From [Phormidium] sp. ETS-05 (GTDB taxonomy: Bacteria; Cyanobacteriota; Cyanobacteriia; Cyanobacteriales; Laspinemataceae), in NCBI RefSeq assembly GCF_016446395.1, contig NZ_CP051168.1, positions 3,621,579 to 3,685,578 on the forward strand: 64,000 bases of DNA. Direction: 5' to 3'. The notes under the pieces are model-generated. The model was not told the origin of the DNA, ran no database searches, and saw nothing but the letters and a program-made list of their open reading frames with translations. The stretch's first letter is position 1. The number at the start of each line of letters is the position of its first letter. The position numbers and the translations under genes are program-made. Shown here piece after piece: positions 4,693 to 51,247 of the stretch.

Positions 4693-4824
4693 GAGTACAA
4701 TAAATCTACAATATGTCGGTCAGTGTTGGTGCATCCGGGGGATTGTCCAGGCGATCGTCCAGTTTTTCTTGGATATAATTAACAAATTCTTCTATGAGTC
4801 CAGCTTCTGGAATGGTCAAGCGTT

Positions 4825-36077: not shown

Positions 36078-37091
36078 TTGAAGATACCGAATGCTATAAC
36101 TGCGATGCTTGCGGGCATCGTCTTAACCCTGGCGAGTCTCTGGTTTGGTCAAAATCACGGTCTGATGCCAGTGGCTGCCTCAGAAGAGGCCCCCTTGGTG
36201 GATGGTCTGTTTAATGCGATGATGACGATCGCCGCCGGTCTGTTTATCCTGGTGCAGGGAGCGCTGGTGATTTCGATTATCAAATTCCGGAAGCGTCCGG
36301 GGGATGAAACCGATGCGCCGCCAGTGGATGGCAACCTATCCCTGGAAATTGTCTGGACCGCTATCCCGGTAGTCATAGTCTTGGGTCTGAGTGTATATAG
36401 TTTTGAGGTGTACAACACGATGGGGGGTCTCGACCCGATGGCATCCCACGACCACGGCCCCCACCAGATGGCTATGACTAGCGGGTCTGCCATAGCTGCT
36501 CCCCTTCCTGGCAGTGAAGATGCGATACCACCGGCGAAAGAAGAGAAAATCGCCCTAGGGGTAGGCGCTTCCCCGGAAAACCAAGGGAACCCCGCCGATT
36601 TAGAAGTGAATGTGCTGGGTTTACAATTTGCCTGGATTTTTACTTATCCTGAAAGCGGCGTTGTTTCTGGCGAACTGCATATCCCTGCTGGCAAAGAAGT
36701 TCAGCTCAACATTGCGGCTCAAGATGTTCTCCATGCCTTCTGGGTGCCGCAGTTCCGCCTGAAACAAGATGCGATTCCCGCACGGACTACGGAACTGCGG
36801 TTTAAACCAAAAACTCCGGGAGATTATCCGATCGTCTGTGCGGAACTCTGCGGCGCCTATCATGGGGCAATGCAGACTCGGGTATTGGTGGAAACGCCAG
36901 AAGATTTCGAGGCTTGGTTGCAAACCCAAATCGCTCTCCAGAAGGATGCGGCGTCTCAAACTGTGGCCATGAACCCGGGCGAATTATCCGATGGGGAGTT
37001 TTTGGCTCCTTTTGTTAGGGATATGGGGATTAATTCTGCAGCTTTGGAGCAGTTGCACCCAGCAGCTCACCACGAACATCACAATAGTTAG
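36078..37091 (+). CDS. ctaC: Cytochrome c oxidase subunit II.
   Basis: CuA centre HAFWVPQFRLKQDAIP...CAELCGAYHGAMQ. Two N-terminal TM helices. Confidence 0.9.
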   Translation: MKIPNAITAMLAGIVLTLASLWFGQNHGLMPVAASEEAPLVDGLFNAMMTIAAGLFILVQGALVISIIKFRKRPGDETDAPPVDGNLSLEIVWTAIPVVIVLGLSVYSFEVYNTMGGLDPMASHDHGPHQMAMTSGSAIAAPLPGSEDAIPPAKEEKIALGVGASPENQGNPADLEVNVLGLQFAWIFTYPESGVVSGELHIPAGKEVQLNIAAQDVLHAFWVPQFRLKQDAIPARTTELRFKPKTPGDYPIVCAELCGAYHGAMQTRVLVETPEDFEAWLQTQIALQKDAASQTVAMNPGELSDGEFLAPFVRDMGINSAALEQLHPAAHHEHHNS

Positions 37092-37220
37092 CTAGGAAGA
37101 TAAAATCCGGTTAATTACCCAGACTAACCTCTCCCTAAACTCCTCTACTCCCCTCTCCCTGTTTGGCAGAGGGGGCGGGGGTGAGGGGTTTTGAGAGCCT
37201 CATTTGTGCAAAAAAGATAA

Positions 37221-38900
37221 TTGATTATGACAACTACAGGAATCGAAACCACGATGAAGCCGCCAGAGCCTGACGAGGCAAGTAATGGCAATAATTGGCG
37301 AAAATACTTTGGCTTTAGCACTGACCACAAGGTGATTGGGATTCAATATCTTGTCACCAGCTTTTTGTTTTACTTGATTGGTGGTCTGTTGGCGGAAGGT
37401 GTGCGGGTGGAACTGGCAACCCCAGACCCGGATTTTGTGGACCCACAGCTTTATAATGGGTTGTTTACGGTTCACGCCACGGTGATGATTTTCCTGTGGA
37501 TTGTGCCAGCAACGGCGGGTTTTGCTAATTATGTGATTCCCCTGGCGATCGGGGCAAAAGACATGGCCTTCCCTCGGTTGAATGGGGTGGGTTTTTGGTT
37601 GATTCCCCCAGGAGGAATTTTGCTCCTATCCAGCTTTTTTGTGGGCGCGCCTGCAGCGGGTTGGACTTCTTATCCCCCTTTAAGTGTGGTGGGGGAAAAA
37701 GGCGGCCAGTTACTGTGGATTCTCAGCGTGTTGGTGCTGGGAACTTCATCGATTTTGGGTGCGATAAATTTTCTCTCTACGATTCTGAAAATGCGCATCC
37801 GAGAGATGGAGCTAAATGATATGCCCTTGTTTTGTTGGGCAATGCTGGCGGCTTCGGCGCTGATTTTGGTGTCAACGCCGGTGCTGGCGGGGGCGCTGAT
37901 TTTGCTCTGTTTTGATTTGATGGCGGGTACTCCTTTCTTTAACCCAATGGCTGGCGGAGACCCGGTGGTTTACCAGCATATGTTCTGGTTTTATTCCCAC
38001 CCGGCGGTTTATATTATGATTCTGCCAGTGTTTGGGATGATTTCAGAAATTATCCCGGTTCACGCTCGCAAGCCGATTTTTGGTTATCAGGCGATCGCTT
38101 ATTCCAGTCTCGCTATCAGCTTCTTGGGTCTCATCGTCTGGGCTCACCATATGTTCACCAGTGGGACTCCCGGCTGGTTGCGGATGTTCTTTATGATTGC
38201 CACAATGGCGATCGCTGTCCCCACCGGTATCAAAGTCTTTAGCTGGGTTGCCACCATTTGGGGGGGCAAACTCCGTCTCAATAGCGCCATGTTATTCGCG
38301 ATCGGGTTCGTCTCTATGTTCCTCGTGGGTGGACTCAGCGGCGTCATGCTCGCCTCGGTTCCCTTTGATATCCACGTTCACGATACCTATTTCATCGTCG
38401 CTCACCTCCACTACGTTCTATTTGGCGGTAGCGTTTTCGGCATTTACGCCGGTGTTTACCACTGGTTCCCCAAAATGACCGGGCGGATGATGAACGAATT
38501 TTGGGGCAAAGTTCATTTCTTCCTCACCTTTTTCGGTTTTAACCTTTGCTTCTTACCCATGCACTGGTTGGGGCTCCAAGGTATGCCTCGCCGCGTTGCC
38601 CAATACAACCCAGAATTTGCCACGGTGAATATGGTTTGTACTGTGGGCTCTTTCATTTTGGCCATTTCTACTCTGCCTTTTCTGTTTAACGCGATTTGGA
38701 GCTGGATAGCCGGACCAAAAGCCTCTGCTAATCCCTGGCGGGCTCTAACTTTAGAGTGGCAGACTTCTTCTCCTCCTCCGGTAGAAAACTTTCTCGAGGA
38801 ACCGGTTTTGTGGTCTGGTCCTTATGAGTACGGCATTGATACCCTCTATGACCGTCAGTCTGCCGATGAATTGCTCGCAGAAGTGAAAGGGGAAGTTTGA
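37221..38900 (+). CDS. ctaD: Cytochrome c oxidase subunit I.
   Basis: 559 aa, 12 TM helices, canonical heme-copper oxidase motifs (WFFGHPEVY-like FWFYSHPAVYIMILPVFG, HHMF). Confidence 0.95.
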   Translation: MIMTTTGIETTMKPPEPDEASNGNNWRKYFGFSTDHKVIGIQYLVTSFLFYLIGGLLAEGVRVELATPDPDFVDPQLYNGLFTVHATVMIFLWIVPATAGFANYVIPLAIGAKDMAFPRLNGVGFWLIPPGGILLLSSFFVGAPAAGWTSYPPLSVVGEKGGQLLWILSVLVLGTSSILGAINFLSTILKMRIREMELNDMPLFCWAMLAASALILVSTPVLAGALILLCFDLMAGTPFFNPMAGGDPVVYQHMFWFYSHPAVYIMILPVFGMISEIIPVHARKPIFGYQAIAYSSLAISFLGLIVWAHHMFTSGTPGWLRMFFMIATMAIAVPTGIKVFSWVATIWGGKLRLNSAMLFAIGFVSMFLVGGLSGVMLASVPFDIHVHDTYFIVAHLHYVLFGGSVFGIYAGVYHWFPKMTGRMMNEFWGKVHFFLTFFGFNLCFLPMHWLGLQGMPRRVAQYNPEFATVNMVCTVGSFILAISTLPFLFNAIWSWIAGPKASANPWRALTLEWQTSSPPPVENFLEEPVLWSGPYEYGIDTLYDRQSADELLAEVKGEV

Positions 38901-39050
38901 TTTTTGTCCTTTGTCCTTTGTCATTTGTCCTTTGTCATTTGTCATTTGTCCTTTGTCCCTTGTCACTTGTAACTTGTATTCACAAAAAATGACAAATCTC
39001 ACTTGTATGACAAAACAAAGGACAAAGGACAAATGACAAATGACCAATTT
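38900..39050. repeat. STRR inverted-repeat array between ctaD and ctaE.
   Basis: Read directly from the sequence. Confidence 0.9.
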
Positions 39051-39075
39051 GTAGTTTTCAAATAGGCGTAAATTC

Positions 39076-39702
39076 ATGCAAGGTTCTGCGATTGAAACTT
39101 CTCAAACAACTGTAGATATGCAGCATGGTCACGGCCATGCTGCGGCTCATCACGAAGCACATCCCGACCACCGCATTTTTGGCATTGTCTTGTTTCTAAT
39201 TGCGGAGTCGATGATATTTTTGGGCTTGTTTGCTGCTTATCTGACTTTCCGCGCTGTCTCCCCGGAATGGCCCCCAGAAGGGACGCCGGAAATGGAGCTA
39301 TTACTGCCGGGAATCAACACGATTATCCTGATTTCTAGCAGTTTTGTGATGAATCAAGGCAATGCCGCAATCAAGCAAAATAATGTGGGCGGTATGCGCG
39401 CTTGGTTTGGTGCTACGGCTTTGATGGGTGTGGTGTTCTTGTGCGGTCAGCTTTATGAGTATTTCCACACCGGTTTCGGTCTCACGGATAATATTTTTAC
39501 CAGCACTTTTTACGTCCTTACTGGTTTCCACGGTTTGCACGTCTGTTTTGGTTTGATGTTGATTTTGGCGGTGATGTGGCGATCGCTCAAGGCCGATCGC
39601 TATTCCAGCGCCAGCCACTTCGGTCCCGAAGCCGCCGAACTTTACTGGCACTTCGTCGATGTGGTGTGGATCGTCCTTTTCCTCATCTTGTACCTGCTCT
39701 GA
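39076..39702 (+). CDS. ctaE: Cytochrome c oxidase subunit III.
   Basis: ...HHEAHPDHRIFGIVLFLIAESMIFLGLFAAYLTFR... is typical subunit III. Confidence 0.9.
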   Translation: MQGSAIETSQTTVDMQHGHGHAAAHHEAHPDHRIFGIVLFLIAESMIFLGLFAAYLTFRAVSPEWPPEGTPEMELLLPGINTIILISSSFVMNQGNAAIKQNNVGGMRAWFGATALMGVVFLCGQLYEYFHTGFGLTDNIFTSTFYVLTGFHGLHVCFGLMLILAVMWRSLKADRYSSASHFGPEAAELYWHFVDVVWIVLFLILYLL

Positions 39703-40613: not shown

Positions 40614-41096
40614 TTAACGTTCTAACAGGTCAATCAGAAATTTTTTAGAGCCATTGGCTTCAGGGCGAAAGCCTAGGGGACAGATCAACAGCCCAACCAG
40701 AAACATCCCCAATGGTGTCAAATAGGTGGGATCAAAGGTGGCACTGGAGAAAGCGGCAATTAACACCCCCACGGCGGCTTGTCCCACCACACTCAACCAA
40801 ATTGCCATAAAAACCATCACAAATGGGTGCATGGTCATTTCAATATGAATTTTACTGCCTGTGCCGTCAGGGTAAATGCGGCCTTTGATGACCGGGATAA
40901 AAGAGTTGCGATAATTGATAATCCGGCTAATCTCGAAATAACTCTCACTAATTTTCCCTTGGTATGGTTTATCCGGCTTGGTCATTCCCCATCGGATATT
41001 GCGGCTGGGAGGTTCTACGACTGAGATTAACTTTTCTCGGACGATATCGGGAGGCAGAGCGGTGGTGATGGTGAAACGCTCGAACGGGAAAATCAT
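40614..41096 (-). CDS. Hypothetical membrane protein.
   Basis: 160 aa with two C-terminal TM helices and no motif. Confidence 0.4.
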   Translation of the reverse strand: MIFPFERFTITTALPPDIVREKLISVVEPPSRNIRWGMTKPDKPYQGKISESYFEISRIINYRNSFIPVIKGRIYPDGTGSKIHIEMTMHPFVMVFMAIWLSVVGQAAVGVLIAAFSSATFDPTYLTPLGMFLVGLLICPLGFRPEANGSKKFLIDLLER

Positions 41097-41325: not shown

Positions 41326-44300
41326 CTACCAAGGAGTGCCAATCAGAGTAAATGGGGCCCAGTAGTAGGGGTGAGTAAAATCGAGGTCGGCTTGCTTTGG
41401 CTTCACCTCGCCGCGCAACATGGCTATTTGTGCTTGCTGTAGGGCCTCGACTTTGGTGGGGGACTGTCCGAGATTCTGGTAAAGTTGCGCCATGAGTTCT
41501 GAGGTGCCGCCGTCGCTGACTTCCCACAGGGTGGCGATCGCGGTTTTTACCCCCGCTTGCACCGATAAGCCTGCAAACCCCATTTCCGCGTCCCGGTTGC
41601 CCACGGCGGTTTCACAGGCACTGAGTACGAGTAATTCTACCGAGCGATCGCCATACCATTGCACCTGGCGTAAATCTTCCAAATGCTTCTGGCCATCCCA
41701 AAATTGGATGTAGTTATTATCCTTATTCTGGAATGCGGCATGGGTGGAAATGTGAATGATGTTAAACCGCTGGCTTTGGCGAGCTTCAGCGAGATTCGCT
41801 AACGTAGCTTGTTCGTTGCGATAAATGGCGACTCCATTCGGCCATGAAGAGTTGATGGCGTCCAGTGTTTCATTTACCCCCAGGAGGTTTTCTAATTTTT
41901 TGACATTGGCCAACCTCTCAAAATCAGATATTCCCATTGCCAACACTTCCCCATCCTGCAATCTGTTGTAGGTAGCGTCACTGAAGGAAGAACTACTGAT
42001 AATTTGGGCTACTTTGTATTTCTCTACCAGAAATTGTTGGCCATCATGCAAAGCTGCTATCGGTAGCAGACTCATACTATCTGGCAGCCCAAATATTAAT
42101 GTGTTGATTCCCAGGGATTGCAACTCTGCTTCCAAAGGTTTAATCAGGATATTATACAGAATTTGTGCATCATGTACTACAGATGTTTTGGCTGTGTTCT
42201 TATCACGTACACTATTGTGAAATAATTTCACCATTTCTTTCAATTCATCAATTTTATTGGTAGTAACTATCTCCTCAACCAGTTGTCCTTCACTATTGAT
42301 GCGGCGCTGGATGCGATGTTCTGTCAGTGGATAGACAGAGGTTGGTCGCCCAGAACCAGTCAACATCACTAACCGCATTCCTATCCCTTTTTGGTCATCT
42401 ACATAAATGATTGCGGGTTTTAAGCTTGTCTCCCGACTTATTTTAGTAAGCATTTCGCGCATTTGAGTTTCGCTTTTGGTTTTCGGTAGCTCTTTATTGC
42501 GCAAATACTCGGTATATTCATTAGTGCGCTGTTGATCAATCAAATCGAATAGGCTTTCTCCATTAGCAGGAGGAGAGGTCGGTAAATTGCTGGCGGGGTT
42601 GAGATTGGGACTCTGTGGTGGCGCCAGGAATCGGGGATTTTTGGGGTTATCACGTCCCAGGGAAACTGGTTCAGTGGTAGGGTTGCTGCTATCCCCTGCA
42701 TTAGGAGAAACTCCATTCCCTTGATTGAGTGGTTGCTCTGTTGGGGGGGTTGCTGGTGCGGGTGCTACGGTTCCGGGAAAATCGGGAGCCGCATTCGGGG
42801 TTGAAGTTTGGTTAACGGTGGGTTGGTTGTATGGGCGCTGATACTGCTGAAGACCAAGGGAAAGTTTCACCGAAGGCTCGATTATCAGAATATTATCCGA
42901 CAATACAGGGCCAATGGTTATGCCTTGGGGAGCTTGTAATGTAATTTGTGCATCGGGAAATCCTGACCCAGAATTGGCGTCTAAAGCACCGGTGACAATA
43001 CGTCCCACGTCAGAGTTTAAACTGATAATTCCCGCTTGTTGATTTTCAGAACGGCTAGTAATGTCGCCGGTGGTGATATTTTGGTTGGCATTTATCTGGA
43101 CGTTACCGGCTGGTCCGTCGATCGCGCTACCATTCACATCACCCAGATTAACTTCACCTGCGGTACTGGTGATGGTGACATTGCCAGCAGCATTCAGGGG
43201 AGTAGGTTCTGGGCCGCTAGTGGGTGTTGGCGCCACAACTGTGGCAGTGGGAGTGGGGTTATTCACTACAGGAGCAGCAGTGACTGACGATGGCGATATG
43301 TTGGCGGGAGCAATTACTGGCGAAGCAGTGGCGGTAGCAGTTGCTGGTGATGTGGTGGTGGGGGTGGTTGGTCCAGCAGAAGTATTGATATTTCCCAGAT
43401 TGATATCTCCAGGAGCTGTGGCGGTAACGCCGCCACCAGAACCATTACTGGCAGAACTGCTGTTGATATCACCGATGGTAATGCTGCCTTCTGTACTGGT
43501 GGCAGTAACATCACCTGCATTTCCAGAATTAACGTTGGTGCTAATATCCTCGGCGGTAACGTTTCCAGCAGCTTGTAAGTTTACCGGTCCACCTGTACCC
43601 ACGTTGGCTTTAGTAGTGAGAATGTTAGCGGTGACATTGCCGTTTGTGCTGGTAATAGTGATGCTGCCGCTGGTTCCCAGTGCGGTTGCGGGAAGAGCGG
43701 GGGAATTACTCGTGGCTGGTGGAGTGGTGGCTGCAGGTTGTGCCGGAGCTGTGGCTGTAGGTTGTGCCGGAGCTGTGGTTACAGGTTGTGGTGTGGGAGT
43801 CGTGGCTGCAGGTTGTGCCGGAGCTGTGGTTACAGGTTGTGCCGGAGTGGCGCTAGCTGGTGGAGTCGTGGCTGCAGGTTGTGCTGGATCTGTGGTTGTT
43901 GGCGGGGGACTGTAGTTGGTAGAGGCATCAACATTACCCACGGTGACATTATTGTTACCGGATACACCAATATTTCCCGCATTTCCCTGCTGCGCGGAAC
44001 TATTCAAATCTTCGGCTTTAACGCCGCCTTCGCTGCTGTTGACTGAAATATTGTTGCCGTTGCCTTCTAAGCCCGATCGGCTATCGATACTCCCAGTGTT
44101 AACATCATCTGTGGCGTTGATGCTAGTTTCTCCGGCATCCCCTTCTACGGTTGATGTCACCACAGTGGGATTGCTAACGGATTCCTCTCGACCGTCCGTG
44201 GTCTCCACTTCGATTTTAATTCCTGAATTGCCGTTATTGGGAGTTGTGCTGTCACTGTCGCCGGTTTGAGTGTCAGTACCATCATCAGTAGGGGTATCTT

Positions 44301-46401
44301 CAGATGGAGGGGTTGTTGGTTCTGGTTCTGGCTGTGGTTCCGGTTCTGGCTGTGGTTCCGGTTCTGGCTGTGGTTCTGGTTCCGGTTCTGGTTCCGGTTC
44401 TGGTTCCGGTTCTGGTTCCGGTTCTGATGTAGTGGGTGGTTTTGGGGCGATCGGCGTAATTTTCACCGGTCCAGCCAGCAAACCCTGACCCGGTAAAGAC
44501 ATAGTTTCTGAAGGAGTTAGCGTCACCGAACCATCATCATTACAAGCCACAGTTCCCGATGCACTGGTGCCGCAATTGTTCTGGAAAAAATCATACACAG
44601 CGCCGCTGGTAATGGTAATACTGCCACCCACTTCTATGGTGATACTGCCTGCATTTCCGAACCAAGTGCCAGTTATGGTTTCTCCGATATTAATATTCTC
44701 AGCCGCTTTCAGGTAAATAGGGCCACCATCACCGGACATAGAGCCAGTAGTAATCACGCCACCGGTCAAATTAGCGCCGCTCGTGAGGGAAATAGAGCCA
44801 CCATTGCCATTAGGCGCATTTGCATCTATCCCCCCAGCATTGATATTGCCAGTAGCATTGACCGTAATCGAACCTGCATCGCCGCCGTACTTAGTGTTAA
44901 CGGCTAGATGAGTACCGCCAGAAAAGGCAGGAATCATCCCAAAATCGCCCCCAGCGGTGATATCAATCGTGCCACCACTTCCCTCCTTGCTAACAGCACG
45001 AACTTTATCCGTAGCAATGTTGCCTCCGGCGTCTAAAATAATACTGCCTGCATCCCCTTTCTGCCATACGCTAGCTTCTACCTGACCAGTGGTAATATCA
45101 TTCATGGCTCGAATTTCTATATTGCCGCCATGACCGGAGTCCGTCGTAGCGCCCACGTTTTCAAGTTTAATGCTACCGTTAGTGCTGTTAATGGTGATGT
45201 CGGCAGCAGTTCCACTCGCGCTATAGCCACTAATTAATCCTGTGGCATTAATATCGCCGTTGGCGTCGATGGTGATGTCACCTGCATCAGCAGCAGCAGT
45301 GGAAGAAGAATTGAGGGAACCGGTTATCTCAATTTTGCCATCACTATTGATATGGATATCTCCCCCCGGCGAACCACCGGTATTGATACTGTCAAGAGTG
45401 ATATCCCCTTTTGCTTCCAAGGTGACGTTACTACCTGCAGCATTGAGGGTTCCAGCGTTCAGAAAACCGCCAGACAGAAGATGGATACCACCACCAGCAA
45501 TACCAGATGTAGTGGTGGCATTTGTGGCAACTAAAGCGCCGTTTTCTATTTTGACTCCAGAACCGGTCAAGTTTACAGTACCATCGGCATTTTTTTGCAC
45601 TCCCGTGGCATGAGTGGCGACACCCCCCGTGAGCAATCCCGGTAAATCTAGCGGAGAAAATGTCAAATCATTAGGCAGACTTCCCGCCGCACTGCTAGGG
45701 ATGATATCCAAACTCAACAACATACCATCTTGACTCAGGCGCAGGACATTGCCACCGTCCACCGATGCTATATTTATTTGGCCACCTGGTGCAGTTAAGC
45801 TACCGGTACTGATGACTGTGCCTCCGAATAGGTTTAAATTTTTTCCCTCTAATACGGATAAATTACCAGAATTGATAATTGTCCCCGGTTGGGACATGGT
45901 GAAGGCAAATTGATTGGGGGTTCCGGTTAAATTGGTGTAGTCGTTATTGCCAATGGCGTTAAACCAGTTGCTGCCTAAACCTATGCCATTGGCGGTAGTT
46001 GCCGTAAATGAACCCATAACGTTTAATTGGGCGTTGGCACCAAAAACAATTCCCGCTGGATTCATTAGAAACAAATTGGCATTGCCGCCCGTCACCTGTA
46101 TTAGCCCATTAATTAGTGAGGCATCGCCGCCAACTACACGACCGAGGATGTTTTGAATGGTGGGGTTTGTCTGGAAATTGGCAGTTTGTCCAGAATCGAG
46201 ATTAAATTGGTCAAAACTGTGAAATAGATTCGTCCCCCCGGTTGTACCGTCTTTAATATCTATGGTGGTGCCGTTAATATTGATATTGGTGTTGGTGGGG
46301 TTGCCGGTTTCTGGGGTGATTTGTGCCAGAACTGGTGTCCCAGCTAATCCGATTCCTAATGGTAGTAGGCATAAAGCTGTATGCAATCCTGATGGTTTCA
46401 T
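41326..46401 (-). CDS. Giant secreted two-partner-secretion exoprotein: N-terminal haemagglutination (TPS) domain, beta-helical repeat body, Pro/Thr/Glu-rich linkers, and a C-terminal CHAT (caspase-like) protease domain.
   Basis: Signal peptide. The TPS domain ...IDIKDGTTGGTNLFHSFDQFNLDSGQTANFQ...NILGRVVGGDASLINGLIQVTGGNANLFLMNPAGIVFG. Gly/Asn/Thr-rich beta-helix repeats. (PEPE/PQPE)n linkers. C-terminal CHAT His/Cys dyad (IIHISTHAAF ... LLVLSACETAVG). Confidence 0.75.
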   Translation of the reverse strand: MKPSGLHTALCLLPLGIGLAGTPVLAQITPETGNPTNTNININGTTIDIKDGTTGGTNLFHSFDQFNLDSGQTANFQTNPTIQNILGRVVGGDASLINGLIQVTGGNANLFLMNPAGIVFGANAQLNVMGSFTATTANGIGLGSNWFNAIGNNDYTNLTGTPNQFAFTMSQPGTIINSGNLSVLEGKNLNLFGGTVISTGSLTAPGGQINIASVDGGNVLRLSQDGMLLSLDIIPSSAAGSLPNDLTFSPLDLPGLLTGGVATHATGVQKNADGTVNLTGSGVKIENGALVATNATTTSGIAGGGIHLLSGGFLNAGTLNAAGSNVTLEAKGDITLDSINTGGSPGGDIHINSDGKIEITGSLNSSSTAAADAGDITIDANGDINATGLISGYSASGTAADITINSTNGSIKLENVGATTDSGHGGNIEIRAMNDITTGQVEASVWQKGDAGSIILDAGGNIATDKVRAVSKEGSGGTIDITAGGDFGMIPAFSGGTHLAVNTKYGGDAGSITVNATGNINAGGIDANAPNGNGGSISLTSGANLTGGVITTGSMSGDGGPIYLKAAENINIGETITGTWFGNAGSITIEVGGSITITSGAVYDFFQNNCGTSASGTVACNDDGSVTLTPSETMSLPGQGLLAGPVKITPIAPKPPTTSEPEPEPEPEPEPEPEPEPQPEPEPQPEPEPQPEPEPTTPPSEDTPTDDGTDTQTGDSDSTTPNNGNSGIKIEVETTDGREESVSNPTVVTSTVEGDAGETSINATDDVNTGSIDSRSGLEGNGNNISVNSSEGGVKAEDLNSSAQQGNAGNIGVSGNNNVTVGNVDASTNYSPPPTTTDPAQPAATTPPASATPAQPVTTAPAQPAATTPTPQPVTTAPAQPTATAPAQPAATTPPATSNSPALPATALGTSGSITITSTNGNVTANILTTKANVGTGGPVNLQAAGNVTAEDISTNVNSGNAGDVTATSTEGSITIGDINSSSASNGSGGGVTATAPGDINLGNINTSAGPTTPTTTSPATATATASPVIAPANISPSSVTAAPVVNNPTPTATVVAPTPTSGPEPTPLNAAGNVTITSTAGEVNLGDVNGSAIDGPAGNVQINANQNITTGDITSRSENQQAGIISLNSDVGRIVTGALDANSGSGFPDAQITLQAPQGITIGPVLSDNILIIEPSVKLSLGLQQYQRPYNQPTVNQTSTPNAAPDFPGTVAPAPATPPTEQPLNQGNGVSPNAGDSSNPTTEPVSLGRDNPKNPRFLAPPQSPNLNPASNLPTSPPANGESLFDLIDQQRTNEYTEYLRNKELPKTKSETQMREMLTKISRETSLKPAIIYVDDQKGIGMRLVMLTGSGRPTSVYPLTEHRIQRRINSEGQLVEEIVTTNKIDELKEMVKLFHNSVRDKNTAKTSVVHDAQILYNILIKPLEAELQSLGINTLIFGLPDSMSLLPIAALHDGQQFLVEKYKVAQIISSSSFSDATYNRLQDGEVLAMGISDFERLANVKKLENLLGVNETLDAINSSWPNGVAIYRNEQATLANLAEARQSQRFNIIHISTHAAFQNKDNNYIQFWDGQKHLEDLRQVQWYGDRSVELLVLSACETAVGNRDAEMGFAGLSVQAGVKTAIATLWEVSDGGTSELMAQLYQNLGQSPTKVEALQQAQIAMLRGEVKPKQADLDFTHPYYWAPFTLIGTPW

Positions 46402-46459: not shown

Positions 46460-46800
46460 GGATTCTTTTGTCTTTGGTCATTGGCTGTAGGGGCACGGCG
46501 TCATTGAGATTTCTCGTGAAACCCAGATATTAATGAGGCCGTGCCCCTACCACGGGATGATTTTTTTCATATGTGCAATTGTTATTTGTCGTTGGCCATT
46601 GGTTGTGGGGGCACTGCGTTATTAAGATTTCTCGTGAAACCTAGATATTAATGAGGCCGTGCCCCTACCAGGGGAGGCTTTTTTCATATGTGCAATTGTC
46701 ATTTGTACTTGGTCATTGGTTGTGGGGGCACGGCGTTATTAAGATTTCTCGTGAAACCCAGATATTAATGAGGCCGTGCCCCTACCACGGTAGATTGAGG
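46460..46800. repeat. Three tandem copies of an approximately 120-bp unit, each containing a 21-bp-stem hairpin (GTAGGGGCACGGCGTCATTAA ... TTAATGAGGCCGTGCCCCTAC).
   Basis: Units start near 46486, 46606 and 46726. Single copies of the hairpin occur at 21022-21086 and 40478-40543. Confidence 0.85.
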
Positions 46801-46827: not shown

Positions 46828-47916
46828 TTACGGCTGTAATTTTTGTAAGTTTTGCACTCGTGTGACATCACCTAATGTTTCATAACCTTGAATTGCCTCC
46901 TGGAGAAATCGCTGGGCTTGGGGGGTATCTTTCAGGGCGGAATAAATTTCTGCCAATTTTGCCGCTGCTTCGGTTTTGATGACTAAATCGGGGGTTTCAG
47001 TGGCGAGTTGGAAGGCTTGGAGATAGTTGTTTATGGCTAGCTGGTTTAGTTGTACTTCCTCGTACAAACCTGCTAGGGTGTGGTAAATTTGGGCTGATTT
47101 TATATTGGCACTGATGGCGGTTTCTAGGGTCTCAATGGCTTCGGCTCTTAACTTATATTTCTGGTATAATATGACTTGGGCTAGAGTCTGCGTGGGTTGG
47201 CCTGGTTGCTGCTGACTTAGTTCGGTGAGGTCGGCTTGGAGGTTGGCTCTTTTACTGTCATCAAGTATGGTGAATCCGAGCTGCATTCCGGGGTCATCAG
47301 TGGAACTAGCCCCGCTGTCGGTGATGATGGTAATTAAGTAATATTCTCCGGGTTGTAAGGGGGTTTCGCCTCCATAAACTACTTGATTGGTGGTGACTTC
47401 TGTTTTCCAATCGACTCCGACTCCCCGCACGCGCACGCGATAGCTGTTGGCTCCGGTTACGGCGTTCCAGCGGATGGTTGGGGTTGGGGAAAGTAGGTGG
47501 GTGCGGCGGGGACTGATGAGATAGGGAAGGTTGGCATCGATACCGGCGATCGCGTCCCCCATAGTGGGATCGGGATTCACAGTCGGCACCGGACAGATAT
47601 TTGCTACCCCTGACGGACTGCCACTGGGTACAGGCTGTGTGGTGCCGTTGCTGCATTGCAGCTTGACTTGGCTCCCGGCGGCGGGCCAAATTAAATCGCC
47701 GTTATCCAGGCTGGTGCCTACGGCGGCGGGTTGGTAGCTGCTCCACCCACTACGTTTGATAGATACTTGTCCGGTGGCGGTGAGGATCGTTCCCAGGGAA
47801 GCGGCGACGGCGGTTGGGGCAGTGGTGAATGCCCCAGTCACCATGATGGACGTGGTAAGTCCGAGGGAACTAAAGCGGTTTAAATACAGGTTTTTGGTGA
47901 GAGTTTGACTGCACAT
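46828..47916 (-). CDS. Secreted FecR-domain protein with C-terminal TPR repeats.
   Basis: Signal peptide. FecR-like GQVSIKRSGWSSYQPAAVGTSLDNGDLIWPAAGSQVKLQCSNGT. C-terminal TPR-like helices. It is paralogous to the ORF at 51545-51916. Confidence 0.55.
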   Translation of the reverse strand: MCSQTLTKNLYLNRFSSLGLTTSIMVTGAFTTAPTAVAASLGTILTATGQVSIKRSGWSSYQPAAVGTSLDNGDLIWPAAGSQVKLQCSNGTTQPVPSGSPSGVANICPVPTVNPDPTMGDAIAGIDANLPYLISPRRTHLLSPTPTIRWNAVTGANSYRVRVRGVGVDWKTEVTTNQVVYGGETPLQPGEYYLITIITDSGASSTDDPGMQLGFTILDDSKRANLQADLTELSQQQPGQPTQTLAQVILYQKYKLRAEAIETLETAISANIKSAQIYHTLAGLYEEVQLNQLAINNYLQAFQLATETPDLVIKTEAAAKLAEIYSALKDTPQAQRFLQEAIQGYETLGDVTRVQNLQKLQP

Positions 47917-49615
47917 CTAATTGCCTCTGTTGCATCAGCATAACTTCATAACTTACCAACCGTTGCTGAGCCATATCAATCCACTTACTTTCTTCGGGAG
48001 TAGTAGTGGGTTGAGCGTAACGCAGACAGTTTTCCCACTCGGTCAAAGCTGCCTTTGGTTGGTTTTGGTTTTCTAGCACTTGCGCTAATAAGCAGTAAGC
48101 GGAGGCTCGTTCTGGGTTGAGGCTGATAGCCATCCGCAAATTGGCTTCGGCGACTGCATAGCCTTTTTGGATAGCTCTTGCCCATCCCAAGTTTTTGTGC
48201 AGGGAATATTTCACCCCATTACTAAAATTGTTTTTCTGTAGTTCAGGCAATATTAGTTGTACTGCTGCCTCGGGATTTCCCGCTAGAATTTCCAACCGAG
48301 CTAAATTATTTACCGCTGGGGTGTAGCCTTTTTTGGCGGCTTTGTAGTAATACTCTTTGGCTAGGTTTTGGTTGAAAAAAGGCTGTTTTTCATACAGCAA
48401 ACCCAGATTATTATAAGGTTTGGGGTAATTGGGTTTGACCCAAATGGCGGTGTGATACCAAAATTCGGCTTGTTCTGGGTTTGTGGTTCCTGCGGCTTGT
48501 CCTAACCGGGTGCAAAAGTCGGCTATGGGTTGCAGAGTTAGCTGCAAGCCAATACACAATATCAATAAGCTGATGGCCGATCGCCGCATTTGCTGTGGGG
48601 AAAACGGCCATGAGAAGATGATTCCTAGACGCAGGTTCTGGCGACGAAACTCCCCAGAGATGTGAGGATTTGAGGGATTTTCCTCGGTGCTTTCTGAGGG
48701 AGCATCATAAAGATGCTGTAGCCGCTCTAACAGCACTTGGGGATTGGCTGGTCGCTGCTGGGGGAGAGGGGATATCATTTGGTCGAGCAAATCTGCCAAC
48801 GGTTTGGAGATTCCCTCTACCCGATCGCGCCATAGCAGTTTATTGGTGCGCCGATGTTTGGGCAAATCGTCGGGATATGAGCCGGTGAGCAAATGGACGA
48901 TCGTGCAGCCAAGACCAAAAATATCTGATTGGGGAACCGCCCCCCCGCTGCGCTGTTCTGGTGCGGTGTATCCATAGGAACCCACCGGCGTCACAGCGCG
49001 ATTAATAAACCCCACGTTGCCAAAGTCGATTAATGCTAATTCTCCGTTAGCTTTCAGGATAATGTTGCTGGGTTTGATATCCCGATGCAGCAATCCTTCT
49101 TCATGTACGTAAATCAGCAGTTGGGTGATTTGGCGCAACCAATTTACCGCGATCGCTTCGGTAATCTCCCCATTTTCCTGGAGCCATGCTCGGAGGTTAG
49201 TCCCCTCAATCTGCTCCATTACCAGACAGGGCAATTGCCTGTGAGCATCTAGAGAAATGGTGAAGAAGCCATCCGGTTCGACCCGAGGCAAACCGGGATG
49301 ACGCAACCGCTTTAATATGGTGGCTTCTCGTTCAAACAGAGTTTGGGCGCCGGTTTCCTGCATTTTGAGAACTTTCAGCACTTTGGGCCAGTCCTCTCGG
49401 TCAGGATTGATGTCCCAGTCTTCCACCTCAAAGACATCGGTTGTGTATTCTTCGTCCAATTGCCGCAGGGGTTTGGCGAGGCGATAGCGATCGTTGATCA
49501 GCAGTGGCGTACCGCAACTGAGACAGCGAGAGCCATCATCGGGGTTGAAGCGGTTGATACAACGGGGGTTAATGCAGTAACACCCGATTTCGGGGGGTTG
49601 ATTAGCGGCAGTCAT
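47870..49615 (-). CDS. Membrane Ser/Thr protein kinase with an N-terminal zinc-ribbon and C-terminal TPR/Sel1-like repeats.
   Basis: CINPRCINRFNPDDGSRCLSCGTPL zinc ribbon. Kinase subdomains (HRDIKPSNIIL, IDFGNVG, GSYGYTAPE). A TM helix, then TPR-like repeats. Confidence 0.8.
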   Translation of the reverse strand: MTAANQPPEIGCYCINPRCINRFNPDDGSRCLSCGTPLLINDRYRLAKPLRQLDEEYTTDVFEVEDWDINPDREDWPKVLKVLKMQETGAQTLFEREATILKRLRHPGLPRVEPDGFFTISLDAHRQLPCLVMEQIEGTNLRAWLQENGEITEAIAVNWLRQITQLLIYVHEEGLLHRDIKPSNIILKANGELALIDFGNVGFINRAVTPVGSYGYTAPEQRSGGAVPQSDIFGLGCTIVHLLTGSYPDDLPKHRRTNKLLWRDRVEGISKPLADLLDQMISPLPQQRPANPQVLLERLQHLYDAPSESTEENPSNPHISGEFRRQNLRLGIIFSWPFSPQQMRRSAISLLILCIGLQLTLQPIADFCTRLGQAAGTTNPEQAEFWYHTAIWVKPNYPKPYNNLGLLYEKQPFFNQNLAKEYYYKAAKKGYTPAVNNLARLEILAGNPEAAVQLILPELQKNNFSNGVKYSLHKNLGWARAIQKGYAVAEANLRMAISLNPERASAYCLLAQVLENQNQPKAALTEWENCLRYAQPTTTPEESKWIDMAQQRLVSYEVMLMQQRQLDVQSNSHQKPVFKPL

Positions 49616-49642: not shown

Positions 49643-51247
49643 TTAACTGGCGAGGGAATTTCCAGCCGGATCGGGCGGTAGGGCTTTGATTAATGATTGG
49701 ATGTTGTCAGCGGCATAGCCGACTTCAAACAGAGACCGATCGCCCAGCCAGCCTAGTAACCGATTATATCGCTCTTCCACTTTCTTTTGACTGCGGAACG
49801 CCTTACACAGCCGCTCGTTTACCTGTTGTAAAATTGGGTGTTCCGTCACAGCATCGCCGCTATCTGATCCTAGAGACCCTTTCCCCAGGTCATGGCTTCT
49901 TAACAAGCTCAATTTTTCGGCGTCTTGGGTTTTCACTGCCTCCATAATTTCGTTGCCAGCTTGAACCACCAGTTGATTCGTCACATATTCCAGCACCATC
50001 GGTTGCAGACTAAACCGAGCGCTGCCGGACTCAGTGATTTTTTCAATCAGGTTGCGCCGTCCCAGAGATTCTAAAGCCTCTAGGAGTTCGGCCTGATGTT
50101 CCGATAGTTCGATATCGTCTTGCAGGGTAAAGAATGTCACCGGTTGGCGCTCGATCGCCAGCCAGTAGAGAATTTCTTTCTCAAACTCATACAAGCGCTC
50201 AAACTGAAAGTCCAGCAAATCCCGAATGTTGCCAAACACAAAGGTTTTTTGCTTCAGGAACTCGGACACATTGCCGCCAAACAGCTCTTTAATCGTGGTA
50301 GCGACAATCTTTAAAGCCAAAGGATTGCCTCGGTAGAGGCGCGTTAGCTCTACCCACTGCTCCGGTTCCGATAACCCTTTAGCGCGGAAAATTTCCCACG
50401 ATTGCTCTTCGTCTAATTCCCTTAGCTCCATCACCCGCACGGGCATGGTTTCACCTTGCAGCAAGGCAATATCGTCGATTTGCTCCAGACTGGTAATCAC
50501 CAAGCAGCTTTGGTGGGATTCCGTGGCCACTCGTTTGATGAGATTGCCATAATCTTGATAGCTATCGCCATAATGCCCCGCTAGGTTGCCACTTCTGAGA
50601 ATCGCTTGGGCGCTATCTAGCACAATCAGACAGCGCTTGGCTTTCAATGTATCCATCAGTCGCGATATCCTGTCGTCAGTTTCATATGGTGGGCTGACGC
50701 CGGGGGCGAAAAATTTAATCAAATCTGCCAGCAGTTCCCTGGCTGGGGGAGCGTCCCGCAGACTGCGCCAAATTACTCCATCAAATTGGTCTTGAATTTG
50801 TTTGGCGAGTTTGATGGCTAGGGTGGTTTTGCCAATTCCCCCCATCCCGCAAATGGCGACCAAACGACAGCGATCGTTTAGTATCCACCCGGCTAAGGTG
50901 TCTAGCTGTTCGCTGCGACCGTAAAAAATGGACACATCGGGTGCTTCTCCCCAGTCGCGGCGGGGTTCTCCGTCCCACTCGAGGCTACTGCCATCTGGTG
51001 TTTGCCCCCGAGACAAAGCCAAGAGATGCTGCTGTAGTTTCGCCAGCTTCACAGGCCCGCGCCCCGGAATCTCAAATTTTTTGTAGATGTCGCTCAGGCG
51101 CTTGCGTACTAGGTCTTCGCTAATCTCGACTTTGGCGGCGATCGTCGGTGTTGATTCTCCCTTCATGGCTAGGGACAACACATGGAACTCTCCATCGGAA
51201 ACTTGCTTCTCGTCGGCGATGGCTTTTAACAGGTCCTCCTGAATCAC
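49643..51247 (-). CDS. STAND-class NB-ARC ATPase with an N-terminal LuxR/sigma-70 region-4-like HTH; no C-terminal repeat sensor domain.
   Basis: HTH segment LSLAMKGESTPTIAAKVEISEDLVRKRLSDIYKKF. Walker A VAICGMGGIGKTTLA and Walker B RCLIVLDSAQ. NB-ARC-type helical region. Confidence 0.7.
   Translation of the reverse strand: MIQEDLLKAIADEKQVSDGEFHVLSLAMKGESTPTIAAKVEISEDLVRKRLSDIYKKFEIPGRGPVKLAKLQQHLLALSRGQTPDGSSLEWDGEPRRDWGEAPDVSIFYGRSEQLDTLAGWILNDRCRLVAICGMGGIGKTTLAIKLAKQIQDQFDGVIWRSLRDAPPARELLADLIKFFAPGVSPPYETDDRISRLMDTLKAKRCLIVLDSAQAILRSGNLAGHYGDSYQDYGNLIKRVATESHQSCLVITSLEQIDDIALLQGETMPVRVMELRELDEEQSWEIFRAKGLSEPEQWVELTRLYRGNPLALKIVATTIKELFGGNVSEFLKQKTFVFGNIRDLLDFQFERLYEFEKEILYWLAIERQPVTFFTLQDDIELSEHQAELLEALESLGRRNLIEKITESGSARFSLQPMVLEYVTNQLVVQAGNEIMEAVKTQDAEKLSLLRSHDLGKGSLGSDSGDAVTEHPILQQVNERLCKAFRSQKKVEERYNRLLGWLGDRSLFEVGYAADNIQSLIKALPPDPAGNSLAS

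What the first reader, a model, noticed from the sequence alone, without database searches (positions are those of the whole stretch)
41326..46401. 1691-aa two-partner-secretion exoprotein with a C-terminal CHAT caspase-like domain and no TpsB nearby
A haemagglutination-type TPS domain leads the protein. It is followed by roughly 1000 aa of Gly/Asn/Thr beta-helix repeats and (PEPEPQ)n and Pro/Thr/Ala linkers, and it ends in a CHAT His/Cys dyad. Filamentous-haemagglutinin-type carriers normally deliver C-terminal toxin or adhesin domains, so a caspase-like protease cargo is unusual.

No Omp85/TpsB transporter gene is in the window. The hexanucleotide microsatellite ccggaaccagaacc at 44330-44440, which encodes the PEPEPQ linker, is a candidate for length variation.
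Basis: partly seen in the sequence, partly recalled or inferred. Interest (0 to 1): 0.6.

Follow-up and report, generated by a model that had tools for sequence, protein, structure and literature searches.

The report
Cyanobacterial secreted fibre with caspase-like end
This is a real gene for a giant surface or secreted fibre protein of a filamentous cyanobacterium that ends in a caspase-like protease; it is one of thousands of annotated but unstudied relatives, so the single gene is ordinary, though its conserved neighbours are worth a look.

Summary
It has a Sec signal peptide and a TPS secretion domain (Pfam E 1e-43). A Gly/Thr/Asn-rich shaft is interrupted by four Pro-rich linkers. The C-terminal 400-aa CHAT module (Pfam E 3e-59) folds like Craspase Csx29 and separase and keeps the His1554/Cys1596 dyad. 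No TpsB is encoded anywhere in the 64 kb.

The claim that this is unusual does not hold:
- 118 of the 120 best homologues share TPS+CHAT, and all named ones are filamentous cyanobacteria.
- The CHAT module has 3,228 clusters (50% identity) at E<=1e-30.
- An adjacent ShlB-type TpsB is found in 13 of 13 Nostocales loci and 0 of 70 other loci. An unlinked transporter is therefore normal for this lineage.

The C-terminus is conserved, there is no pretoxin motif and no conserved immunity gene, so this is not a CDI-type polymorphic toxin. Linker length variation is real.

The new point is a conserved upstream cassette: a STAND/LuxR regulator, a transmembrane Ser/Thr kinase with a periplasmic TPR domain, and an exported beta-sandwich+TPR protein. 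Function has not been tested. I found no paper on this family.

The parts
41326..46401 (-). TPS-CHAT gene, 1691 aa plus stop codon
   Evidence: ORF list and translation; Pfam TPS and CHAT; orthologue P0001 starts with the same MKPSGLH
46324..46401 (-). Sec-type signal peptide, aa 1-26 (MKPSGLHTALCLLPLGIGLAGTPVLA | QI)
   Evidence: Read from the sequence. The TPS domain starts at aa 26. No predictor was run.
45721..46326 (-). TPS secretion domain, aa 26-227, with the NLFHSF and LMNPAGI motifs
   Evidence: PF05860 E 1.1e-43; TIGR01901 E 4.9e-24; motifs invariant in A2; family profile matches EtpA 8vba (E 5e-26) and HMW1 2odl
44452..45720 (-). Shaft segment 1, aa 228-650, G/T/N/I-rich, inferred beta-helix, with the Cys610/Cys620 pair
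   Evidence: Composition; profile match to EtpA extends to profile position 857; 85-90% identical to the orthologue; Cys positions
44311..44451 (-). Linker 1, aa 651-697, (PE)n/PEPEPQ, encoded by 12- and 18-bp tandem repeats
   Evidence: TRF 44317-44426; DNA. The orthologue has a different S/T/D linker here, and that linker varies in copy number between two assemblies.
43708..43908 (-). Linker 2, aa 832-898, PAQPAATT-type Pro/Thr/Ala repeat
   Evidence: TRF 24-bp period at 43727-43847; a 54-aa block is absent from the orthologue
43204..43371 (-). Linker 3, aa 1011-1066, Pro/Thr/Ala-rich
   Evidence: Translation; TRF 27-bp period at 43291-43362; indels against the orthologue
42556..42861 (-). 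Linker 4, aa 1181-1282, Pro/Asn/Gln-rich, poorly conserved
   Evidence: Translation; low identity to the orthologue
41329..42555 (-). C-terminal CHAT module, aa 1283-1691 (N-terminal subdomain plus caspase-like domain); His1554 at 41740-41742, Cys1596 at 41614-41616
   Evidence: PF12770 E 2.9e-59. AF2 model of aa 1290-1691: pLDDT 85, pTM 0.88. Foldseek: Csx29 7y9x_B E 4e-13, then separase, SAVED-CHAT, DdvA, gingipain, caspase-7. Dyad conservation; codons checked.
46467..46790 (-). 117-bp tandem repeat, 2.8 copies, each with a GC-rich hairpin, between the upstream gene and the TPS-CHAT start
   Evidence: TRF score 543, 90% matches; three exact 26-mers where 0 are expected; fold z-score -3.9; only partly present in the orthologue; no Rfam family
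46828..47916 (-). Upstream partner, 362 aa: signal peptide, two beta-sandwich domains (conserved C88, C108) and TPR repeats
   Evidence: TPR_12; AF2 pLDDT 83; Foldseek MtxA-C/FnIII and TPR proteins. It is the immediate upstream neighbour of TPS-CHAT in 8 loci. Only 23 homologues were found; P0245 and P0246 share contig lengths with the TPS-CHAT hits P0006 and P0003, which suggests they lie on the same contigs.
47870..49615 (-). Ser/Thr kinase, 581 aa: 4-Cys prefix, kinase domain, one TM helix at about aa 346-368, C-terminal TPR (inferred periplasmic)
   Evidence: Pkinase and TPR; 4Cys_prefix_kin; hydropathy. Conserved before the 362-aa gene in L001, L057 and L086. Its TPR part is about 34% identical to that of the CHAT-TM-TPR proteins in Microcoleus loci.
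49643..51247 (-). GerE/LuxR plus NB-ARC STAND NTPase, 534 aa, first gene of the co-oriented cluster
   Evidence: Pfam; conserved in L001 (92%), L057 (46%) and L086
51545..51916 (+). Divergent 123-aa ORF, a paralogue of the N-terminal beta domain of the 362-aa protein
   Evidence: hmmsearch E 1.5e-21 against the A3 profile, positions 11-111; the L001 counterpart at 4647-5114 matches the same profile; L086 has a 131-aa gene in the same position whose homology was not tested
40614..41096 (-). Downstream 160-aa two-TM protein; membership doubtful
   Evidence: No family hit; conserved only in the closest orthologous locus L001

Best explanation
The gene encodes a type Vb (two-partner secretion) TpsA-type exoprotein of a filamentous, Oscillatoriaceae-like cyanobacterium. 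It belongs to the very large cyanobacterial TPS-CHAT family.

Shown here:
- a Sec signal peptide and a bona fide TPS domain;
- a long Gly/Thr/Asn-rich shaft cut into four segments by Pro-rich linkers that vary in length;
- a conserved 400-aa C-terminal CHAT module with a caspase/separase-like fold and an intact His1554/Cys1596 dyad.

Inferred mechanism:
1. After Sec export, the TPS domain is recognised by the POTRA domains of a ShlB-type TpsB encoded elsewhere in the genome. One transporter probably serves several TPS-CHAT paralogues.
2. The chain is threaded N-terminus first through the barrel and the shaft folds outside as a fibre.
3. The CHAT protease, which emerges last, is the functional end. 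By analogy with the C-terminal parts of CdiA and FhaB, it is probably held in the periplasm before it acts or is released.
4. There it would be controlled by the co-encoded periplasmic beta-sandwich/TPR protein and by the TPR ectodomain of the adjacent transmembrane kinase.

The substrate is unknown. Candidates are the protein itself, its TPR partners, or surface proteins of the same or a neighbouring filament. The restriction to filamentous cyanobacteria points to a role at the filament surface, such as adhesion, bundling or contact sensing, rather than virulence.
For: - Domains and motifs.
- TpsA homology: the family profile matches EtpA 8vba (E 5e-26, profile positions 31-857) and HMW1 2odl.
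- CHAT fold and dyad.
- Family size and taxonomy: 2332 hits at E<=1e-10 with 118 of the best 120 being TPS+CHAT; all named loci among the 80 genome loci are cyanobacterial (the rest are unnamed MAGs); 59 intact TPS+CHAT ORFs, several in tandem; 3,228 clusters at E<=1e-30.
- A dedicated TpsB exists for the family: ShlB+POTRA_2 proteins lie next to TPS-CHAT in 13 of 13 Nostocales loci. The same TpsB family, at 65% identity, occurs in non-Nostocales genera that hold several unlinked TPS-CHAT genes.
- Envelope location of the partners: signal peptide and conserved Cys pair in the 362-aa protein; a TM helix between the kinase and TPR domains.
- Conserved gene order STAND-kinase-362-TPS/CHAT in L001, L086 and, at 34-46% identity, L057.
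- The mature protein has only three cysteines: a C610/C620 pair and the catalytic C1596.
- A TpsA-type surface protein is mutated in a phage-resistant Nostoc 7120 substrain with lowered adsorption (PMC10811720).
Against: - No TpsB could be shown for this genome, because only 64 kb are available.
- No experiment on any TPS-CHAT protein was found.
- The beta-helix is inferred from composition and a profile match. The single sequence gives no PDB hit and Fil_haemagg_2 is not detected.
- Whether CHAT ends up outside, stays in the periplasm or is cleaved off is unknown.
- The partner cassette accompanies only 8 of about 83 loci sampled. Other loci have different cassettes or no recognisable partner, so it may be lineage-specific regulation rather than core mechanism.
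- The 426-nt gap with a tandem repeat between the 362-aa gene and the TPS-CHAT gene leaves co-transcription open.
Confidence: 0.55

Rival explanations
1. Trans-envelope contact sensor. The shaft is a surface antenna and the CHAT module never leaves the periplasm. On a surface signal, such as contact, tension or phage binding, it cleaves the TPR adaptor or the TPR ectodomain of the kinase. The signal then passes through the kinase (or, in other loci, a cytoplasmic CHAT) to the STAND/LuxR regulator.
For: - Three cassette types place a transmembrane protein with an extracytoplasmic sensor (TPR or CHASE2) and a swappable cytoplasmic effector (kinase or CHAT) next to TPS-CHAT, followed by a small exported protein (the 362-aa family or DUF928).
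- Calothrix L031 holds CHAT-CHASE2, DUF928, TPS-CHAT and TpsB together.
- The structural neighbours of the CHAT module include the transmembrane anti-sigma factor DdvA, 8rot.
- From established knowledge: the C-terminal halves of CdiA and FhaB stay in the periplasm.
Against: This rests on gene neighbourhood only. The cassette is present in a minority of loci. No interaction or cleavage site was predicted or tested. Many TPS-CHAT genes stand alone.
Confidence: 0.2
2. Contact-dependent toxin of the CDI type. The CHAT protease is delivered into neighbouring cells and kills or arrests those that lack an immunity protein.
For: It has a TpsA architecture with an enzymatic C-terminal domain. Zhang et al. 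2012 propose that C-terminal caspase-like domains act as toxins in polymorphic toxin systems (PMC3482391).
Against: - The C-terminal module is conserved, not polymorphic: 37 invariant positions and 40-50% identity across 43 homologues.
- The variable parts are the linkers.
- No VENN/pretoxin domain was found by Pfam.
- The downstream 160-aa gene is conserved only in the nearest orthologue.
- No cdiB is adjacent.
- Zhang et al. do not list T5SS among the export routes for Tox-Caspase.
Confidence: 0.1
3. The CHAT module is only a maturation or releasing peptidase. It cuts its own chain, for example in a linker, to shed the shaft from the cell. The real function lies in the shaft, as an adhesin or matrix fibre.
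For: Caspase-like domains are frequent releasing peptidases in large secreted proteins (PMC3482391). Four exposed Pro-rich linkers are available as cleavage sites. From established knowledge: the FhaB prodomain is removed during maturation.
Against: In Zhang et al., releasing peptidases usually sit upstream of a cargo domain, whereas here CHAT is the last domain. The very strong conservation of the whole 400-aa module, including its N-terminal subdomain, suggests more than self-cleavage.
Confidence: 0.12
4. The locus is an anti-phage or programmed-cell-death module in which the STAND NTPase and the kinase sense infection and the CHAT protease executes. The TPS domain would be a relic and the protein would not be secreted.
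For: The kinase matches PADLOC PD-T4-6 models (E 6e-91) and the STAND weakly matches PDC-S27. CHAT proteases act as effectors in Craspase and SAVED-CHAT systems, which are structural neighbours.
Against: - TPS-CHAT itself has no PADLOC hit.
- The signal peptide and TPS motifs are strictly conserved, and a cognate TpsB is adjacent in Nostocales.
- The PD-T4-6 models match the kinase domain only (aa 13-316), which suggests a generic kinase match.
- The neighbouring genes are housekeeping genes (cox operon, rhodanese).
Confidence: 0.03

Closest known systems
Characterised TpsA exoproteins of type Vb secretion (FHA/FhaB, HMW1, EtpA, ShlA, CdiA)
   Same: An N-terminal Sec signal followed by a TPS domain with the conserved N-x-F and NPxG(I) motifs. 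A long repetitive shaft. The functional domain at the C-terminal end. The family profile aligns to EtpA and HMW1 structures. A ShlB/POTRA_2 partner lies next to family members in Nostocales.
   Different: The organisms are cyanobacteria, not proteobacterial pathogens. No TpsB is linked in this lineage. Fil_haemagg_2 repeats are not detected. The shaft is broken by four Pro-rich linkers. The cargo is a CHAT protease, which no reviewed TPS system carries (the TPS review PMC5422565 has 0 mentions of CHAT or caspase).
CHAT-domain proteases: Craspase Csx29 (TPR-CHAT), separase, SAVED-CHAT, DdvA, HetF
   Same: A two-subdomain caspase-like fold over about 390 aligned columns (Csx29 E 4e-13, TMq 0.58-0.60; separase E 2e-9). 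The His...Cys motifs IHISTHA and LSACET. Genomic association with TPR proteins, which gave the domain its name.
   Different: Those proteins are cytoplasmic, or membrane-anchored in the case of DdvA, and are switched on by RNA, nucleotides or securin removal. Here the module sits at the end of a secreted fibre, behind a signal peptide. Sequence identity is only 12-16%, and no PDB hit is found by sequence.
CDI / polymorphic toxin systems (CdiBAI; Tox-Caspase of Zhang et al. 2012)
   Same: A TpsA carrier with an enzymatic C-terminus. Caspase-like domains have been proposed as terminal toxins.
   Different: There is no pretoxin motif, no hypervariable C-terminus, no conserved immunity gene and no adjacent CdiB.
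Database family 'CHAT domain-containing protein / filamentous hemagglutinin family protein' of filamentous cyanobacteria (e.g. P0001 of Oscillatoriaceae cyanobacterium M33_DOE_052)
   Same: The same architecture from end to end. P0001 is 69% identical overall and about 85-90% identical in the folded parts, with the same flanking genes.
   Different: Only the linkers differ: (PE)n and PAQPAATT repeats here, against a TTTTPDTDTSG repeat or nothing there.

Membership tests
TpsA (two-partner secretion exoprotein, type Vb) | N-terminal Sec signal peptide | tested here: met
   aa 1-26 have a basic n-region, a hydrophobic core and VLA|Q. This was read from the sequence; no predictor was run.
TpsA (two-partner secretion exoprotein, type Vb) | TPS domain above the curated thresholds, with conserved motifs | tested here: met
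   PF05860 150 bits against a cut-off of 33.5; TIGR01901 84 bits against 29.1; NLFHSF and LMNPAGI invariant or nearly invariant in A2
TpsA (two-partner secretion exoprotein, type Vb) | Right-handed beta-helix shaft | tested here: inconclusive
   The family profile aligns to EtpA over positions 31-857. The single sequence has no PDB hit, Fil_haemagg_2 is not detected, and the shaft was not modelled.
TpsA (two-partner secretion exoprotein, type Vb) | Cognate TpsB (ShlB/FhaC-type Omp85 with POTRA domains) | not testable with these tools
   Absent from the 64-kb window, and the rest of the genome is not available. It is present next to family members in 13 of 13 Nostocales loci and unlinked in other genera.
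TpsA (two-partner secretion exoprotein, type Vb) | Demonstrated TpsB-dependent export | not testable with these tools
   Needs experiment.
CHAT (caspase-like, clan CD) peptidase | PF12770 match above the gathering score | tested here: met
   201 bits against 24, covering profile positions 4-288 of 289
CHAT (caspase-like, clan CD) peptidase | Caspase/separase-like fold | tested here: met
   AF2 pLDDT 85, pTM 0.88; Foldseek hits to Csx29, separase, SAVED-CHAT, gingipain and caspase-7
CHAT (caspase-like, clan CD) peptidase | Catalytic His and Cys present | tested here: met
   H1554 (THA) and C1596 (SAC) are invariant in A1 and present in 98% of 120 homologues. Assigning H1554 rather than H1550 as the catalytic residue rests on the known caspase His-Gly/Ala pattern.
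CHAT (caspase-like, clan CD) peptidase | Peptidase activity | not testable with these tools
   Needs an enzyme assay.
CDI / polymorphic toxin (CdiA-type) | Pretoxin (VENN or similar) motif marking off a variable C-terminal toxin | tested here: not met
   No such Pfam domain. The junction is a low-complexity Pro/Asn/Gln linker.
CDI / polymorphic toxin (CdiA-type) | C-terminal domain polymorphic between strains, with a cognate immunity gene downstream | tested here: not met
   The C-terminus is the best-conserved part. The downstream gene is conserved only in L001.
CDI / polymorphic toxin (CdiA-type) | cdiB adjacent in the operon | tested here: not met
FHA-type adhesin (Fil_haemagg_2 repeats) | PF13332 repeats in the shaft | tested here: not met
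   No hit at E<0.01.

The most novel reading that the evidence does not exclude
TPS-CHAT proteins are the outer arm of a previously undescribed trans-envelope signalling device of filamentous cyanobacteria. It would consist of a surface fibre whose periplasmic caspase-like end talks to an exported adaptor (the beta-sandwich/TPR family or DUF928). A membrane protein with an extracytoplasmic TPR or CHASE2 sensor and an interchangeable cytoplasmic output (Ser/Thr kinase or a second CHAT protease) would then feed a STAND/LuxR regulator. This would be a bacterial case of surface contact being converted into intracellular proteolytic or phospho-signalling.
Probability: 0.2. Interest if true: 0.75.

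Novelty: new member of a known kind. Interest (0 to 1): 0.38.

Why it matters
As a single gene it adds little. It is one more member of a family that annotation pipelines already recognise.

The family itself deserves attention. It is among the largest groups of giant proteins in filamentous cyanobacteria, with several copies per genome, in organisms that build mats and soil crusts. It joins a secretion device known from pathogens to a protease of the caspase/separase type, and I found no experimental or comparative paper on it.

Three points from this work give a concrete starting point:
- the lineage split in TpsB linkage;
- the conserved partner cassettes with swapped kinase or CHAT outputs;
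- the copy-number-variable linkers.

They frame testable questions: what does a caspase-like enzyme do at a bacterial cell surface, and does it take part in filament-to-filament or phage-to-surface interactions?

Tried and rejected
1. Plus-strand reading of the coordinates: full of stops.
2. Exact look-up of the protein in public assemblies: not on record. P0040 was not on record either.
3. PDB sequence search with the single CHAT segment and with the single N-terminal 650 aa: no hits. Only the family profile and the fold search gave matches.
4. Looking for a hidden or divergent TpsB among the large ORFs and in all six frames of the window and of the 70 non-Nostocales loci: none.
5. The downstream 160-aa protein as an immunity candidate: rejected, because it is conserved only in the nearest orthologue.
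6. Homology between the 362-aa partner family and DUF928, which occupies the same position in other cassettes: hhalign probability 9%, not established.
7. The 362-aa protein as a novel transporter: rejected. The model shows two beta-sandwiches plus TPR and no barrel.
8. Rfam on the whole window, including the repeat-bearing leader: nothing. The promoter and terminator scan did not exceed shuffles.
9. Literature searches with several term sets for TPS+CHAT and DUF928: nothing relevant.
10. PADLOC: only the kinase domain (aa 13-316) matches PD-T4-6 models and the STAND match is weak, so I did not take this as evidence for a defence system.
11. Finding a nearer orthologue that covers the linker: the closest relative, L086, ends before the gene. 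The metagenome scan returned only the P0001-type gene.
Full report
**1. What is there**

The coordinates 41326-46401 hold a single ATG-started ORF of 1691 codons on the minus strand. The plus-strand frame is full of stops.

Pfam finds a TPS secretion domain at aa 26-227 (E 1.1e-43) and a CHAT domain at aa 1412-1688 (E 2.9e-59). Both lie far above their curated cut-offs. NCBIfam adds the 'adhes_NPXG' filamentous-haemagglutinin N-terminal domain. Fil_haemagg_2 is not detected.

The first 26 residues look like a Sec signal peptide ending in VLA|Q.

The composition is G/T/N/A/S/I-rich up to about aa 1180. It is interrupted by four Pro-rich linkers:
- aa 651-697, (PE)n/PEPEPQ;
- aa 832-898, PAQPAATT-like;
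- aa 1011-1066, Pro/Thr/Ala-rich;
- aa 1181-1282, Pro/Asn/Gln-rich.

The first two linkers are encoded by tandem DNA repeats. The PE linker consists of 4.5 perfect 12-mers followed by three 18-mers, all multiples of three. Slippage would therefore change length, not reading frame.

The mature protein has only three cysteines: a C610/C620 pair in the shaft and C1596.

The window is cyanobacterial. All named homologues come from filamentous cyanobacteria, and the HIP1 octamer GCGATCGC occurs 25 times in 64 kb.

**2. Are the two end domains real?**

*N-terminal end.* A profile built from 44 family members matches the solved two-partner-secretion adhesins EtpA (8vba, E 5e-26, profile positions 31-857) and HMW1 (2odl). 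The motifs NLFHSF and LMNPAGI are invariant or nearly invariant across the family.

*C-terminal end.* An AlphaFold2 model of aa 1290-1691 is confident (pLDDT 85, pTM 0.88). Its best structural neighbours are the TPR-CHAT protease Csx29 of Craspase (E 4e-13, TM about 0.6 over about 390 columns). Separases, SAVED-CHAT, the CHAT anti-sigma factor DdvA, gingipain and caspase-7 follow. H1550, H1554 and C1596 are invariant in the 44-sequence alignment and present in 98% of 120 homologues.

The domain calls stand.

**3. Is it unusual?**

It is not unusual in its own lineage.
Of the best 120, 118 carry both PF05860 and PF12770. All named ones are from Oscillatoriales, Nostocales, Coleofasciculales and similar orders. 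Single genomes hold many copies, at least seven in Oscillatoria princeps.
- A scan of one genome per species gave 360 confirmed loci, of which the best 80 were kept. All named ones are cyanobacteria; the rest are unnamed MAGs. They contain 59 intact TPS+CHAT ORFs, several tandem pairs and some frameshifted copies.
- An exhaustive HMMER scan of 1.84 billion cluster representatives with the CHAT module found 3,228 clusters at E<=1e-30. In the great majority of the 150 best hits the module reaches or nearly reaches the C-terminus of a long protein.

Sources already name these proteins 'CHAT domain-containing protein' or 'filamentous hemagglutinin family protein'.

No paper in the searchable library joins CHAT with two-partner secretion. 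The TPS review does not mention CHAT or caspase. The polymorphic-toxin survey lists Tox-Caspase with T2SS, T6SS, T7SS and PVC export, but not T5SS.

The architecture is thus common and annotated, but it appears to be unstudied.

**4. The missing TpsB**

No ShlB/POTRA/Omp85 protein is encoded in the window. This holds for the large ORFs and for a six-frame search with an HMM built from 14 cyanobacterial TpsB proteins.

Clustering the neighbours of the 83 related loci shows a sharp split. A 600-630-aa ShlB+POTRA_2 protein lies directly next to TPS-CHAT in all 13 Nostocales loci. It is found in none of the 70 others, 41 of which have at least 5 kb of upstream sequence.

The same TpsB family has 2730 hits. 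At 65% identity it occurs in non-Nostocales genera such as Trichocoleus and Funiculus. There it sits behind two DUF928 genes and 4 kb from one short TPS-CHAT gene. Other, longer TPS-CHAT proteins from these genera (P0050, P0096, P0105) are not in those two loci.

The simplest reading is one transporter for several substrates, so an unlinked TpsB is the norm for this lineage. I could not verify this for the genome behind the window.

**5. Conserved neighbours**

Upstream, on the same strand, lie three genes:
- a GerE/LuxR+NB-ARC STAND NTPase (49643-51247);
- a Ser/Thr kinase with a 4-Cys prefix, one TM helix at about aa 346-368 and C-terminal TPR repeats (47870-49615);
- a 362-aa protein (46828-47916) that overlaps the kinase gene by 47 nt.

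The order STAND-kinase-362-TPS/CHAT recurs in three places. These are the nearest relative L001, a 95%-identical Logan contig L086, and Microcoleus vaginatus L057 at only 34-46% identity.

The 362-aa family is small, with 23 hits in 5.8 billion sequences. Two hits (P0245, P0246) share contig lengths with TPS-CHAT hits P0006 and P0003, which suggests they lie on the same contigs. Its model (pLDDT 83) shows a signal peptide, two beta-sandwich domains with a conserved Cys pair, and a TPR domain. It looks like an exported adaptor, not a transporter.

In five Microcoleus-type loci the kinase is replaced by a protein with an N-terminal CHAT, in some a hydrophobic segment, and a homologous TPR domain.

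A third cassette type has CHAT-CHASE2 plus DUF928 before TPS-CHAT. In Calothrix L031 this also includes TpsB.

A divergent 123-aa ORF (51545-51916) is a paralogue of the first beta domain of the 362-aa protein.

These cassettes accompany a minority of TPS-CHAT genes. Others, such as L002 and L003, stand among unrelated genes.

**6. Linker variation**

Against the orthologue P0001, the folded parts are about 85-90% identical. The (PE)n linker, however, is replaced by a shorter S/T/D-rich one, and a 54-aa block of the PAQPAATT linker is absent.

A metagenome contig (L087) encodes a protein 100% identical to P0001 over all 1613 aligned residues but 44 aa longer. It has six rather than two copies of TTTTPDTDTSG at exactly this linker position. 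The caveat is that short-read assemblies can collapse repeats.

**7. How it most likely works**

*Shown:* the signal peptide, the TPS domain, the CHAT fold and dyad, the family size, TpsB adjacency in Nostocales, and the envelope-type partners.

*Inferred:* the chain is exported through an unlinked TpsB, N-terminus first. The shaft folds outside. The CHAT module emerges last and is the functional end. By analogy with CdiA and FhaB, it is probably held and controlled in the periplasm by the TPR partners before it acts or is released.

A CDI-type toxin reading is disfavoured. The C-terminus is the most conserved part, there is no pretoxin motif, no conserved immunity gene and no adjacent cdiB.

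A pure self-releasing peptidase and a periplasmic signalling role both remain open.

One experimental hint that TpsA-type proteins sit on the cyanobacterial surface comes from a phage-resistant Nostoc 7120 substrain. It carries a mutation in such a gene and shows lowered adsorption (PMC10811720). Whether that protein has a CHAT domain is not stated.

**8. Verdict**

The gene is a new member (69% identity to the nearest relative) of a known, heavily populated but uncharacterised family. Interest is modest for the gene itself. It is higher for the family and for the partner cassettes, which I did not find described anywhere.

Noticed in passing
window 30927-33077 (-): A 716-aa ORF with a full set of Major Vault Protein domains: Vault repeats E 6e-71, MVP shoulder E 8e-52, plus Vault_2, Vault_3 and Vault_4. 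This is a eukaryote-type vault shell protein homologue in a cyanobacterial window.
   Followed up: no
window 46467-46790: A 117-bp tandem repeat (2.8 copies, 90% matches) fills the gap between the 362-aa gene and the TPS-CHAT start. Each unit has a GGGGCACGGC...GCCGTGCCCC hairpin. The fold z-score is -3.9 and there is no Rfam match. Only part of one unit is present in the orthologous locus L001.
   Followed up: partly
window 51545-51916 (+): A small divergent ORF of 123 aa is a paralogue of the N-terminal beta domain of the 362-aa partner protein (E 1.5e-21). The L001 counterpart (4647-5114) matches the same profile; L086 has a 131-aa gene in the same position (1300-1695) that was not tested for homology.
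   Followed up: partly
window 47870-49615 (-): The transmembrane kinase scores E 6e-91 against PADLOC PD-T4-6 (single-gene kinase defence) models, and the neighbouring STAND weakly matches PDC-S27. The PD-T4-6 match covers only the kinase domain (aa 13-316), so it may be a generic kinase match, but a defence role was not excluded.
   Followed up: partly
L031 6296-17769; L074, L038, L035; L084/L085 7035-11932: A second recurring cassette around TPS-CHAT and TpsB: a CHAT-CHASE2 membrane protein and one or two DUF928 proteins. Calothrix PCC 7103 (L031) has CHAT-CHASE2, DUF928, TPS-CHAT and TpsB in a row. No paper on DUF928 function was found.
   Followed up: partly
L087 4534-9531 versus P0001 / L001: Two public assemblies of the same gene are 100% identical over 1613 aa and differ only by four extra copies of an 11-aa (33-bp) linker unit.
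   Followed up: yes
L036, L045, L058, L077, L081; L004, L014, L022, L034, L039, L073, L082: TPS-CHAT genes often occur as tandem pairs. In several loci the gene is split into a TPS ORF and a CHAT ORF. This may reflect frameshifts, pseudogenes or assembly errors in the repeats.
   Followed up: no
homologues P0048, P0066, P0074, P0077, P0089, P0114, P0085: Some family members carry glycosyltransferase family 2 domains (PF00535, PF13641, PF10111) in addition to TPS and CHAT. In P0085 they occur without a CHAT domain. L005, L020 and L052 have TPR repeats inside the TPS-CHAT protein.
   Followed up: no
window, whole: The HIP1 octamer GCGATCGC occurs 25 times in 64 kb and the GC content is 49.8%. 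This is consistent with a cyanobacterial chromosome. A cox operon (36078-39702) and a rhodanese gene flank the locus.
   Followed up: no
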